Both the position numbers and the translations under genes were made by a program. 64,000 nucleotides of DNA, from assembly GCA_937958885.1 (NCBI GenBank), contig CALGMT010000015.1, positions 4,280-68,279 of the forward strand, read 5' to 3'. Below, piece by piece: positions 30,121 to 32,545 of the stretch; positions within the stretch are counted from its first letter, which is position 1, and every line of letters starts with the position of its first letter. Below the pieces are notes generated by a model. That model had not been told where the DNA came from and did not search any database. It saw only the letters and a program-made list of their open reading frames with translations. This stretch comes from an uncultured bacterium. GTDB taxonomy: Bacteria; Verrucomicrobiota; Kiritimatiellia; CAIVKH01.

Positions 30121-30281
30121 CACACACCGTTCACACCCCTCCGGGCCGGCGTCTTTGCAACGCGAAAATTATGCGCTCAACTCCTCGCACCACGTTCGCA
30201 GGACCAGTCGCCGGGCACTTCCACATACGATCCTAACAAAATATCTCGACTTTTCGACAGGATATCCGTAATCTGAATTCG

Positions 30282-32192
30282 ATGATGATTCACGTCAGCA
30301 CGTCAGCACGTCAGCACGTCAGCCTAGCCTGCCTCATCGCGGTCTTCGTTGCGTATAGTCGCCGCCTGCTCCTCAGCCTTTCGGTTTTGATCGGTTCGAC
30401 ATTCGCCGAGTCGGTGAATGACGTCCGCGAAGTTCAAATCGCCTTCTCCCCGCGCGGCGAGGCGGCGCCCCTCATTCTCCGCGAGCTGCAATCCGCCCAG
30501 CAGCGCGTGGATGTGGCCATGTTCTATTTCAGTCACGCCGTTCTGGCCGATACATTGTGCGTGCTGGCCCGGCGCGGGGTATCGGTCCGTGTGCTGACGG
30601 ACGGACGCATGAATCGGCCGGCTCATCGGCCGCTCCTCGATCGTATGGCGGCCTGCGGCGTCTCGGTGCAATTTCTCCCGCTACCCAACGATGCGCGTAT
30701 GCACCTGAAGTGCGCGGTCATTGATGAGGCAACCGTCATTACCGGCGCGGCGAATTGGTCCCCTGCTGCGTTCGATCAGAACTTCGAAGACACGCTCGTT
30801 ATTCGATCGCGCGAGCTCAGCCGCCACTACAGGGCAAAACTGAATGAGCTTGCCGCAAAGGCGGAAAACTTGCTTCTCGATTCAGCGAGCGTCGACCGGA
30901 CGCCGAGCCCCAAGTTTGCGGCAGCGCAACAGCAACCTCCACCTGCATCCGCAGCGGAGGCCCGGATTCCTCCGAAGATCGCCGTTCGAGACGTTCGGCA
31001 GGCCGCCGTGCACTTTTGCCCGGGACGCGAGGGCATCCGGCATGTGTTGGCGCAAGTCCGCGAGGCCGCGCAACGTATAGACATCGGGATTTATCTGATC
31101 AATGACACCGAGGTGGTCAATGCCTTGACGGATATGGCGCGCAGCGGGCGCGTAAAAGTAAGGCTGCTGGTGAATTCGGGAATGCTGGACGGGACCTTGT
31201 TGCCGCGCCTTCAGACATTGTGGGACGCAGGCGTCGAAGTGCTCTATTTCCAGGCAGATCGCCGCGCGCTGCACCTCAAGTCGGCCGTGATTGATGGCCG
31301 CTACGTCTGGACCGGCACCGCGAATTGGACGACCGGCGCGTTCGATCTAAATGTCGAGGATATGCTTTTCTTCGAGTCGTCGGATATGGCGCGGGCCTAT
31401 ACGGCCGCGCTCGACGGTATCGCCGGCGTGAGTCAATCGTTCGCGCCATTGTCGCTTGGCCATCGAGCGGCCGACGTGGAAGCGCGAGCGGATTACAGTC
31501 GATCCGGATGGCTTACGGGCCTGCCGCCCACGGGACCGCGCACGAATTGGACGTCCATCAATGTGTTCGGCGATCCGCCATTCCCCGCGTTCGAGACCCG
31601 CGCGACGGTGAGCTATCTGCCCGACGAGGAGTACTTCCCCGTCCTGCTCAACCTGGTCCAGAGCGCGCACCAATCCATTCTTATCACCATGTTTGCCATG
31701 CCCGAGACCAAGACCGCAGCGCCCTATCGGGAACAGTTGCTCCATGCATTGGAGCAAGCCGTAAAGCGGGGGGTTTATGTGCGCATGCTGCTGCACATGC
31801 CGACGAGTCTCCAGGACCGGCTTCATGAGGCCCATTCCAACTGGGCCGAAAAGCTGCGGGCGAAGGGGATAGACGTGCGGTTGAACCTGCCGCACATCCA
31901 TCTGCACGCCAAGACGGTGGTGGTGGATTTGGCCAAGATCCTGATCGGTTCGCACAACTGGTCGGAGGGCTCCCTTTCGAGCAGGGCCGTTTATGAATCC
32001 AGCGCGCTGATTGTGCTGCCCCGGCAGGACGTCCGCTTTGCCGATTATCTCTTCAGCCGCCAGGCCATCAGCGACATGCGCAGCCGTGAGCACTGGGAAC
32101 AAGAGCTCACGCTCCTGCGCCACGCAGGCGGCATGCACTCGAAACAACGCGCCGCCTTCTTCCGCGACAAGGAGGCGCCGGCAACTCCATGA
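30282..32192 (+). CDS. secreted/anchored phospholipase D (Nuc-like) family protein with three HKD modules
   Basis: Hydrophobic N-terminus (LACLIAVFVAYSRRLLLSLSVLIGSTFA). Three HxKx4D motifs: MHLKCAVIDEATVITGAANWS, LHLKSAVIDGRYVWTGTANWT and HLHAKTVVVDLAKILIGSHNWS. Confidence 0.85.
   Translation: MMIHVSTSARQHVSLACLIAVFVAYSRRLLLSLSVLIGSTFAESVNDVREVQIAFSPRGEAAPLILRELQSAQQRVDVAMFYFSHAVLADTLCVLARRGVSVRVLTDGRMNRPAHRPLLDRMAACGVSVQFLPLPNDARMHLKCAVIDEATVITGAANWSPAAFDQNFEDTLVIRSRELSRHYRAKLNELAAKAENLLLDSASVDRTPSPKFAAAQQQPPPASAAEARIPPKIAVRDVRQAAVHFCPGREGIRHVLAQVREAAQRIDIGIYLINDTEVVNALTDMARSGRVKVRLLVNSGMLDGTLLPRLQTLWDAGVEVLYFQADRRALHLKSAVIDGRYVWTGTANWTTGAFDLNVEDMLFFESSDMARAYTAALDGIAGVSQSFAPLSLGHRAADVEARADYSRSGWLTGLPPTGPRTNWTSINVFGDPPFPAFETRATVSYLPDEEYFPVLLNLVQSAHQSILITMFAMPETKTAAPYREQLLHALEQAVKRGVYVRMLLHMPTSLQDRLHEAHSNWAEKLRAKGIDVRLNLPHIHLHAKTVVVDLAKILIGSHNWSEGSLSSRAVYESSALIVLPRQDVRFADYLFSRQAISDMRSREHWEQELTLLRHAGGMHSKQRAAFFRDKEAPATP
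30291..30322 (+). repeat. octanucleotide tandem repeat (CACGTCAG)x4 inside the 5' end of the PLD-like gene
   Basis: Four perfect head-to-tail copies starting 9 nt after ATG 30282. They encode HVSTSARQHVS ahead of the signal peptide. Confidence 0.95.
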
Positions 32193-32460
32193 CAGGAACG
32201 CTTCCACATCCAAAGCCTGAAAAGGTGGACGCCGGCCTCCGGACGGCGTCTCCCAATGCCTGCCATGTGACGAGACTGCATATTGCCCTTGCCCTGCTTC
32301 TACTATTCCATCCGCCTCCAACTGATATCTATGCCGCGCTCGACCGCGTGTACCTGCGCGACGGGCGCGTCCTGGAGGGACGAATCGCCGGCGAGCGCAA
32401 GGTCAATACACCTTCGTCGCCGAATCGCATCTTCAGATCCCCAAGGCGGCGGTCATGTTC

Positions 32461-32545
32461 GGGCAAAATGGGGTCAGTCCGCGGGCAAAATGGGGTCAGT
32501 CCGCACATAGTTGCAAAACGCAAGCGGGAAATGGGGTCAGTCCGC
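32461..32545 (+). repeat. REP-like direct repeats (GGGCAAAATGGGGTCAGTCCGC x2 in tandem, plus a third copy)
   Basis: Units at 32461-32482, 32483-32504 and 32526-32545 (GGGAAATGGGGTCAGTCCGC). Confidence 0.85.

What the first reader, a model, noticed from the sequence alone, without database searches (positions are those of the whole stretch)
30291..30322. (CACGTCAG)x4 octanucleotide repeat just after the start codon of the PLD-like gene: possible slipped-strand ON/OFF switch
Seen: four perfect 8-nt units begin 9 nt downstream of ATG 30282. The only in-frame start codons (30282, 30285) lie upstream of the repeat, and the signal peptide lies downstream. Gain or loss of one unit (8 nt) would therefore shift the frame. 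Established: tandem repeats whose unit is not a multiple of 3, placed at the 5' end of surface or secreted protein genes, are classic contingency loci. Inference: expression of the secreted nuclease/phospholipase may be phase-variable. Alternatively the TGACGTG array (reverse strand) is an operator.
Basis: partly seen in the sequence, partly recalled or inferred. Interest (0 to 1): 0.6.

Follow-up and report, generated by a model that had tools for sequence, protein, structure and literature searches.

The report
Repeat switch on secreted nuclease gene
A perfect 8-letter DNA repeat just after the start codon of a secreted nuclease-like gene in a marine Kiritimatiellia bacterium sits where related bacteria carry 7- or 8-letter repeats whose copy number changes and turns the gene on or off, so it is very probably a classic slippage switch, seen here in a free-living phylum where none had been described.

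Summary
(CACGTCAG)x4 plus one C lies at 30291-30323, 9 nt after ATG 30282 of a 636-aa gene with three PLD/HKD modules. It is the only perfect repeat of this kind in the 64-kb window.

- 17 of 37 distinct orthologues from Kiritimatiellia carry a perfect repeat at the same place, between the start codon and the signal-peptide core.
- The units are unrelated in sequence and are 7, 8 or 4 nt long, never a multiple of 3.
- On flanks identical over 4.5 kb, copy number differs between assemblies: 7, 11, 12, 15, 16, 17 and 18 in one lineage; 7, 8 and 12 in another; 3 versus 4 in a third.
- Only one copy-number class in three keeps the start codon in frame. Roughly 10 ON and 20 OFF alleles were seen, and the reading frame downstream was intact wherever I examined OFF alleles.

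For the window's own organism the evidence is indirect. The k=31 contigs of its best-matching run break at the repeat, which a uniform 4-unit allele would not cause.

The operator alternative is rejected because the unit sequence is not conserved.

This is a new member of a known kind, an opa-type contingency locus.

The parts
30246..30251 (+). -35-like hexamer TCGACT (inferred)
   Evidence: It aligns with a TTGACA/TTGACT/TTGCAA hexamer that lies 35-38 nt upstream of the start codon in 14 of 16 repeat-bearing orthologues. It is weak in the window (4 of 6 matches). The tool's own promoter scan found nothing here.
30269..30274 (+). -10-like hexamer TAATCT, 17 nt after the -35-like hexamer and 7 nt before the ATG (inferred; implies a leaderless or nearly leaderless mRNA)
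   Evidence: The same spacing (6 + 17 + 6 + 6-9 nt to the start codon) recurs in orthologues. No Shine-Dalgarno sequence is present. No RNA run was available for the window.
30282..30287 (+). start codons ATG ATG; the ATGATT context is conserved in orthologues
   Evidence: These are the only in-frame ATG codons between the stop at 30234 and the signal-peptide core.
30291..30323 (+). (CACGTCAG)x4 + C, the repeat tract that acts as the switch; it encodes HVSTSARQHVS
30324..30326 (+). TAG directly after the tract, read as a stop when n = 2, 5 or 8
30282..30407 (+). probable signal peptide (42 codons): an n-region that includes the repeat-encoded residues, then RR, the core LLLSLSVLIG, and STFA|E
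   Evidence: Read from the translation. Orthologues have the same layout. No signal-peptide predictor was available, so this is an inference.
30282..32192 (+). gene for a 636-aa protein with three Nuc-like single-HKD modules (H141/K143/D148, H331/K333/D338, H542/K544/D549)
   Evidence: Pfam PLDc_2 x3. The HKD residues are invariant or nearly invariant in alignment A1. The closest solved structures are Zucchini/MitoPLD, Nuc and NucT. The best NCBIfam matches, all below the curated cut-off, are DrmC and NucT; PADLOC also finds DrmC models.
32189..32431 (+). remnant of the single-HKD partner gene, overlapping the stop codon by 4 nt; only about 70 N-terminal residues are left
   Evidence: BLASTP and tblastn against the 253-aa partner of relatives match only the N-terminus (DRVYLRDGRVLEG). 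No HKD part is found anywhere in the window.

Best explanation
The octamer tract is a slipped-strand contingency switch of the translational type.

**Layout**
- It lies 9 nt after the start codon, in the part of the gene that encodes the n-region of a cleavable signal peptide. That region tolerates any length and any sequence.
- The mRNA is probably leaderless or nearly so (inferred), so no alternative start is available.

**Mechanism**
- Replication slippage adds or removes 8-nt units.
- Only n = 1 mod 3 (1, 4, 7, 10) keeps the ATG in frame with the secreted triple-HKD, Nuc-like nuclease/phospholipase.
- All other numbers stop translation after 9-46 codons.
- In relatives the switch would also govern a single-HKD partner gene that overlaps the stop codon by 4 nt.

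**Shown**
- The tract, the frame logic, and the same architecture in orthologues.
- Different tract lengths on identical backgrounds in orthologues.
- Both ON and OFF alleles, with the downstream reading frame intact in the OFF alleles examined.

**Inferred**
- That switching is frequent and reversible.
- That it occurs in this organism.
- That the mRNA is leaderless.
- That the protein is secreted, and what the benefit is. Bet-hedging over a costly or risky extracellular nuclease is the likeliest.
For: **1. Same position, different units.** 35 of 64 orthologous loci (17 of 37 distinct sequences) have a perfect repeat ending 91-175 nt before the conserved FSPxG motif, 3-9 nt after an ATG or GTG. 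The units are AGACGCC, CAGCCGC, CGTCAGC, GCATCTC (7 nt); GGCATCTC, GGCATCTT, CGACATCT, GTCTGCCT, CACGTCAG (8 nt); and TCAC (4 nt). None is a multiple of 3.

**2. Specific to this site.** All 37 perfect repeats found in 635 kb of fetched loci sit at this site. None lies elsewhere.

**3. Phylogeny.** Repeat-bearing genes form clades. The 10-member group that holds the window gene is entirely repeat-bearing. The trait needs only 3 changes on the tree, and 0 of 500 shuffles do as well.

**4. Hypervariability on identical backgrounds.**
- Loci L001 and L003-L006 have n = 18, 12, 17, 11 and 15 with 0 mismatches in about 4.5 kb of flank. All five are out of frame. L176 (n = 16) and L177 (n = 7) encode the same protein in frame, but their flanking DNA was not compared.
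- L008 has n = 7 (ON). L188 (n = 8) and L187 (n = 12) are OFF.
- n = 3 (ON, 7 contigs, 3 pipelines) versus n = 4 (OFF, 2 contigs, 2 pipelines).
- GGCATCTC has n = 4 versus 7 with 0-1 mismatches in 3.3 kb.

**5. Protein clusters at 90% identity.** They contain length variants that differ by whole sets of three units, plus N-terminally truncated gene calls from OFF alleles.

**6. OFF alleles have no substitute start.** No in-frame start lies ahead of the signal peptide, yet the reading frame stays open through the tract into the domain.

**7. The window's own sample.**
- In run X1 the k=31 contigs stop 30 nt into the tract.
- A 38-nt unitig holds all eight rotations of the pure repeat at 45x, against 12-15x in the flanks. 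A uniform 33-nt tract would give one continuous contig.
- Short tracts are spanned by Logan contigs elsewhere (L186, L194).
- A related 57-nt tract gives the expected cycle graph.
Against: - No reads or contigs show two copy numbers for the window's own locus. The X1 evidence is indirect.
- The extra repeat k-mers in X1 could come from another genome. (CACGTCAG)n occurs in four unrelated IMG/VR contigs.
- The window's right-hand junction is not reproduced in X1 contigs, for reasons I could not resolve.
- Four units is a short tract. A 3-unit OFF allele of one relative is identical in 10 of 10 assemblies, so short tracts can be stable.
- The ON:OFF ratio among distinct alleles is about 10:20. 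That is what random tract lengths would give, so it offers no sign of selection for either state.
- In the GGCATCTC lineage only n = 4 and 7 were seen. Both are out of frame with the conserved ATG but in frame with a TTG 4 nt upstream. This fits the model poorly.
- Assembled lengths of long tracts may be collapse products of the assembler.
- The partner gene is truncated in the window, so the system may be decaying in this genome.
Confidence: 0.72

Rival explanations
1. Frozen remnant. The family-level switch is real, but in this organism the tract has shrunk to four units, switches too rarely to matter, and the gene is in effect locked ON.
For: - The 3-unit OFF allele P0129 is identical in 10 of 10 assemblies.
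- P0004 carries a degenerate, point-mutated tract and shows no length variants among its 5 cluster members.
- The partner gene is truncated in the window.
Against: - X1 k=31 contigs break at the tract, which requires at least 5 units somewhere in that sample.
- 3-unit and 4-unit alleles coexist on one background in a relative.
- The tract is perfect, with no interruptions.
Confidence: 0.2
2. Neutral slippage hot spot. The repeat is a tolerated mutational by-product in an unconstrained signal-peptide region of a dispensable gene, without adaptive value.
For: - About 10 ON to 20 OFF alleles, which is the random expectation.
- The n-region of a signal peptide tolerates insertions.
Against: - A neutral coding repeat should favour triplet units, yet none of about 6 unrelated unit families is a multiple of 3.
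- The site has kept a perfect tract across genes only 40-60% identical, while the unit sequence turned over.
- OFF alleles have no other lesion: 0 changes in 4.5 kb.
- The catalytic residues are invariant.
Confidence: 0.12
3. Operator array. The repeated TGACGTG/CACGTCAG motif binds a regulator.
For: The tract is a tandem motif with an ACGT core next to the promoter region.
Against: - Orthologues carry unrelated units at the same site.
- A 7-8 bp period does not keep sites on one face of the helix.
- The octamer occurs only once elsewhere in the window.
- Copy number varies from 3 to 18 in relatives.
Confidence: 0.02
4. The assembled copy number is an artefact. The real tract in the source population is longer (about 7 units) or mixed, and 33 nt is the collapsed shortest path.
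For: - 33 nt equals the collapse length for k of 26-33.
- In X1 the depth ratio 45.4/13.3 = 3.4 equals (T-30)/8 for a tract length T of about 57 nt, that is n of about 7.
- The same arithmetic recovers n of about 6-7 for a relative assembled with 7 units.
Against: - Usual metagenome assemblers (k of 55-141) would resolve a uniform 57-nt tract.
- The extra depth may come from other genomes.
- This rival does not contradict the switch: n = 7 is also in frame.
Confidence: 0.35

Closest known systems
Neisseria opa genes: CTCTT pentamer repeats in the signal-peptide coding region (my own knowledge; Stern et al. 1986)
   Same: - A non-triplet repeat sits inside the leader-peptide coding part, just after the start codon.
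- Slippage changes the frame, giving translational ON/OFF of an exported protein.
- The repeat-encoded residues are removed with the signal peptide.
   Different: - The unit is 7-8 nt here, not 5.
- The organism is a free-living anaerobe of the PVC group, not a host-restricted pathogen.
- The target is a nuclease-like enzyme, not an adhesin.
- The unit sequence turns over between species.
- The mRNA is probably leaderless.
Haemophilus influenzae tetranucleotide contingency loci (lic1A, lgtC, hgp and others; reviews PMC2651432, PMC11868660)
   Same: - Repeats at the 5' end of the ORF.
- Tract length is polymorphic between strains.
- Mutability rises with tract length.
   Different: - Those loci use 4-nt units, and several have alternative ATGs in two frames.
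- Many loci share one unit per genome.
H. influenzae hmw1A/hmw2A 7-bp promoter repeats
   Same: Heptanucleotide unit with variable copy number.
   Different: Those repeats lie in the promoter or 5' UTR and grade transcription. Here the tract is inside the coding sequence and acts through the reading frame.
Nuc (pKM101), NucT (Helicobacter pylori) and Zucchini/MitoPLD: single-HKD nucleases
   Same: Each of the three modules matches these proteins, with E-values of 1e-8 to 2e-11 against chains 1byr, 6ehi, 4ggj and 9lkx. The HxKx4D motifs are intact.
   Different: Three modules lie in one chain, plus (in relatives) a fourth on a translationally coupled partner. None of these known nucleases is known to me to be phase-variable.

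Membership tests
SSR contingency locus (slipped-strand phase variation, translational type) | Perfect tandem repeat, with a unit that is not a multiple of 3, inside the 5' coding region | tested here: met
   (CACGTCAG)x4 lies 9 nt after the ATG and is unique in the window.
SSR contingency locus (slipped-strand phase variation, translational type) | A unit change moves the only usable start codon out of frame | tested here: met
   ON only for n = 1, 4, 7, 10; the only start behind the tract is a TTG inside the signal peptide.
SSR contingency locus (slipped-strand phase variation, translational type) | Tract length is polymorphic among near-identical genomes or samples | tested here: met
   Met for orthologues: n = 11-18 on flanks identical over 4.5 kb; 7, 8 and 12; 3 versus 4; 4 versus 7. 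For the window's own locus the evidence is only indirect.
SSR contingency locus (slipped-strand phase variation, translational type) | Heterogeneity within one population, or within the window's own organism | tested here: inconclusive
   X1 k=31 contigs break at the tract, and a pure-repeat unitig has 3.4x the flank depth. No raw reads were available. The same octamer array exists in other genomes.
SSR contingency locus (slipped-strand phase variation, translational type) | High-frequency, reversible switching of the phenotype | not testable with these tools
   This needs cultures or reporter constructs.
SSR contingency locus (slipped-strand phase variation, translational type) | Repeats are enriched at the locus relative to background | tested here: met
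   37 of 37 perfect repeats in 635 kb of loci lie at this site.
PLD/HKD superfamily, Nuc-like nuclease branch | HxKx4D motif in each module and a match to PLDc_2 | tested here: met
PLD/HKD superfamily, Nuc-like nuclease branch | Nuclease or phospholipase activity | not testable with these tools
   An enzyme assay is needed.
DISARM DrmC | Score above the curated cut-off, and DrmA/DrmB/methylase neighbours | tested here: not met
   NCBIfam gives 122 bits against a cut-off of 133. The protein has a signal peptide, and the genes called beside it in the window and in relatives are not DISARM genes.

The most novel reading that the evidence does not exclude
A clade of free-living Kiritimatiellia has maintained, by selection for mutability itself, an ancient contingency locus on a secreted four-HKD nuclease operon. 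The repeat unit is repeatedly replaced (7 and 8 nt, several unrelated sequences), but its position in the signal-peptide n-region of a leaderless mRNA is kept. Some genomes carry two independently switching paralogues. This would be bet-hedging over an extracellular public-good or risk enzyme in environmental communities, and it could be followed directly in metagenome time series.
Probability: 0.45. Interest if true: 0.72.

Novelty: new member of a known kind. Interest (0 to 1): 0.62.

Why it matters
Repeat-driven phase variation is known almost entirely from host-adapted pathogens and commensals. No paper in the searched library combines Kiritimatiellia with phase variation.

Here the same switch design as in Neisseria opa genes appears in uncultured, free-living anaerobes from marine, sludge and digester habitats. 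It sits on a secreted nuclease-like enzyme. It has been kept at one site across genes only 40-60% identical, while the repeat sequence itself was replaced.

If confirmed, three things follow:
- Stochastic ON/OFF control is part of the ecology of environmental polymer degraders.
- ON and OFF alleles can be read from public metagenomes, giving a natural system in which to study how mutable sites are maintained.
- Gene callers systematically mis-annotate these genes. The truncated proteins P0121, P0129, P0150 and P0153 come from OFF alleles; P0156 is a short call made on the same DNA as the full-length P0157.

Tried and rejected
- **Whole-genome tools.** I could not look for paralogues or other repeat loci in the window's genome.
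- **Operator hypothesis.** Rejected because the unit is not conserved.
- **Start codon behind the tract.** Rejected: the window has only a TTG inside the signal peptide, and most OFF orthologues have none.
- **P0156 (528 aa, 82 contigs) as an OFF allele of different length.** Wrong: its contigs have the same n = 7 or 4 as P0157. The gene callers simply differ.
- **RNA evidence for the transcription start.**
  - No RNA run holds the window gene.
  - RNA-labelled runs for a relative gave only k=31 contigs. In one run (X30) nothing is covered between 425 and 602, just upstream of the tract. That fits a short or absent leader but proves nothing.
- **Right-hand junction in X1.** I tried to locate the mismatch at the end of the right-hand contig. 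It lies in the 2 nt left of 30324, but neither the base nor the reason for the contig end could be read.
- **Window protein in the assembly index.** The look-up found nothing.
- **Octamer array in viral contigs.** The search found 4 unrelated hits. These mainly weaken the depth argument for X1.
- **DISARM membership.** Rejected.
Full report
**Observation**

Window 30291-30322 is CACGTCAG four times without a mismatch, followed by one more C. The doubled unit, allowing 2 mismatches, occurs only here; 0.02 matches are expected by chance. No other perfect repeat with a unit of 4-12 nt and at least 3 copies exists in the 64 kb.

The tract starts 9 nt after ATG 30282, which opens a 636-aa ORF (30282-32192). 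The frame is closed upstream by TAA at 30234. The product has three PLDc_2 modules with intact HxKx4D motifs. Its closest solved relatives are the single-HKD nucleases Nuc, NucT and Zucchini.

With other copy numbers the full ORF is read only for n = 1, 4, 7 and 10. For n = 2, 5 and 8 the TAG at 30324 ends translation at once.

**Who the organism is**

The best protein relatives (up to 61% identity) are all from Kiritimatiellia and 'Verrucomicrobia' MAGs from marine, activated-sludge and digester metagenomes. The window comes from a marine metagenome; run X1 holds 97% of its sampled words.

**The key finding: the repeat is a family trait**

The N-termini of homologues carry peptide repeats that are simply translations of 7- or 8-nt DNA repeats: RRQTPDA = (AGACGCC)x3, QPPAASR = (CAGCCGC)x3, GISASRHL = (GGCATCTC)x3, GILASWHL = (GGCATCTT)x3.

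I fetched the DNA of 190 loci.
- Of 64 orthologous loci, 35 have a perfect repeat ending 91-175 nt before the conserved FSPxG motif. That is 17 of 37 distinct sequences.
- In every case the repeat starts 3-9 nt after an ATG or GTG, often in the context ATGATT.
- Units are 7, 8 or, once, 4 nt. About six unit families are unrelated in sequence.
- The window's CACGTCAG resembles the CGTCAGC of locus L012 and locus L175.
- In 635 kb of fetched DNA, all 37 perfect repeats lie at this one site.
- On a maximum-likelihood tree the trait is strongly clustered. It needs 3 changes, and 0 of 500 shuffles do as well. The 10-member group around the window gene is entirely repeat-bearing. A 15-member clade of related genes (several genomes carry a copy from each clade) has none.

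**Copy number varies on identical backgrounds**

| Lineage | Copy numbers seen | Background |
|---|---|---|
| AGACGCC, wastewater | 18, 12, 17, 11, 15 (all out of frame); 16 and 7 (in frame) | 0 mismatches in about 4.5 kb of flank for the five OFF assemblies; the two ON loci encode the same protein, flanks not compared |
| CAGACGC, P0147 background | 7 (ON), 8 and 12 (OFF) | same protein |
| CAGACGC, P0152 background | 3 (ON, 7 contigs, three pipelines including a k=31 Logan contig) versus 4 (OFF, 2 contigs, two pipelines) | same protein |
| GGCATCTC | 4 versus 7 | 0-1 mismatches in 3.3 kb |

Protein clusters at 90% identity hold the matching length variants (642/663 aa, 630/638 aa, 632/638 aa). 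They also hold N-terminally truncated gene calls that come from OFF alleles.

The OFF alleles examined have no in-frame start ahead of the signal peptide, yet their reading frame stays open through the tract into the domain. Counting distinct alleles by the conserved start gives about 10 ON and 20 OFF.

**Caveats on assembled numbers**

A tract longer than the assembler's k collapses to the shortest consistent length. Three observed lengths equal such collapse values: 133 nt for k = 127, 57 nt for k = 55 and 33 nt for k of 26-33. Some numbers may therefore be wrong, including the window's 4. The variants of 3, 4, 7, 8 and 12 units are shorter than usual read lengths. Each of the 3- and 4-unit alleles was recovered by independent pipelines, so the polymorphism itself is real.

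Short tracts can also be stable: the 3-unit OFF allele P0129 is identical in 10 of 10 assemblies.

**The window's own population**

In X1 the k=31 Logan contigs stop exactly 30 nt into the tract. A 38-nt unitig carries all eight rotations of the pure repeat at depth 45.4, against 14.9 and 11.7 in the flanks. A uniform 33-nt tract contains only three pure-repeat 31-mers and would give one continuous contig, as happens for 3-unit tracts in Logan contigs L186 and L194.

As a calibration, the 57-nt GGCATCTC tract of a relative gives the textbook cycle graph in four runs. The unit depths there are 3.1-3.5x and 2.2-2.6x the flank.

The X1 ratio of 3.4 would fit about 7 units, which is also in frame. 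Two things weaken this:
- The right-hand contig of X1 has only two bases left of TAGCC, and one of them differs from the window. I cannot explain this.
- (CACGTCAG)n arrays occur in four unrelated viral contigs, so the extra k-mers might come from another genome.

I conclude that the locus in the sample is not a simple, uniform 4-unit allele. Variation in this organism is not proven.

**Mechanism**

A TTGAC/TTGCA hexamer lies 35-38 nt upstream of the start codon in 14 of 16 repeat-bearing orthologues. A -10-like hexamer follows 16-18 nt later and ends 6-9 nt before the start codon. No Shine-Dalgarno sequence is present.

In the window these elements are TCGACT (30246-51) and TAATCT (30269-74). 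The match is weak, and the standard scan finds no promoter. I infer a leaderless or nearly leaderless mRNA, which would explain why no other start can rescue OFF alleles. This is not shown.

The repeat-encoded residues fall in the signal-peptide n-region, where length and sequence are free. The design is the same as the CTCTT repeats in the leader of Neisseria opa genes.

**Rivals**

- **Operator array.** Rejected, because the units are unrelated among orthologues.
- **Neutral hot spot.** Unlikely, for three reasons: no unit is a multiple of three; the site has kept a perfect tract over deep divergence while the unit turned over; and OFF alleles carry no other lesion. The random-looking 1:2 ON:OFF ratio, however, gives no positive sign of selection.
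- **Frozen remnant in this genome.** This remains possible at about 0.2.
- **An unexplained case.** In the GGCATCTC lineage both observed numbers are out of frame with the conserved ATG but in frame with a TTG 4 nt upstream.

**Context**

In all relatives a 253-259-aa single-HKD gene overlaps the stop codon of the triple-HKD gene by 4 nt. That gives four HKD motifs in total, enough for two active sites. In the window only about 70 N-terminal residues of that partner remain before repeat or transposase-like DNA begins.

**Novelty**

The mechanism is classical. New points are the phylum and life style, the target enzyme, the long-term retention of the site with unit turnover, and the probable leaderless context. 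No paper in the searched library links Kiritimatiellia with phase variation.

**Verdict**

| Item | Result |
|---|---|
| Observation | confirmed |
| Novelty class | new member of a known kind |
| Interest | about 0.6 |

Noticed in passing
window 32189-32431 (to about 32460): The gene that overlaps the PLD stop codon by 4 nt keeps only the signal peptide and the DRVYLRDGRVLEG motif of the single-HKD partner that follows the triple-HKD gene in relatives. The HKD part is absent from the whole window. The ORF then runs into the 22-bp tandem repeat at 32460-32504.
   Followed up: partly
window 30246-30274; loci L001, L007, L012, L029, L100, L175 and others: A TTGAC/TTGCA hexamer lies 35-38 nt before the start codon and a -10-like hexamer lies 6-9 nt before it. 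No Shine-Dalgarno sequence is present. This is a probable leaderless mRNA design shared by the repeat-bearing orthologues.
   Followed up: partly
L198 7328-7423; L199 1715-1762; L200; L201: The same octamer (CACGTCAG)n occurs in four unrelated IMG/VR contigs with n = 14, 6, 3 and 3. In L199 it lies next to what look like a tRNA gene end and an integrase-like ORF (not verified with a tool). No link to PLD genes was seen.
   Followed up: partly
L011, L015, L022 (one MAG, ADurb.Bin018): One genome has three paralogues: one with a mixed CAGCCGC/CAGACGC/CAACCGC array, one with (GGCATCTC)x7, and one without a repeat. That means two potentially independent switches. In Logan contigs of four runs the L011 array region is shattered into 37-47-nt unitigs of unequal depth.
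   Followed up: partly
L015/L099/L100/L167-L174, about 9 nt before the GGCATCTC tract: Both observed alleles (n = 4 and 7) are out of frame with the conserved ATG but in frame with a TTG 4 nt upstream. Public annotations split between a 638-aa call from the TTG and a 528-aa call from an internal start on identical DNA.
   Followed up: partly
window 30322-30323, in run X1: The right-hand Logan contig of X1 ends two bases left of TAGCC, and one of those bases differs from the window. The 28-29 k-mers that hold the window's tract-to-flank junction are missing, although the flank depth is 11.7x.
   Followed up: partly
L167 425-602, in RNA run X30: No contig covers the intergenic stretch up to the repeat, while the gene body has depth 33. 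This is compatible with a transcription start at or just before the ATG. Three sister runs instead show gaps just downstream of the tract.
   Followed up: no
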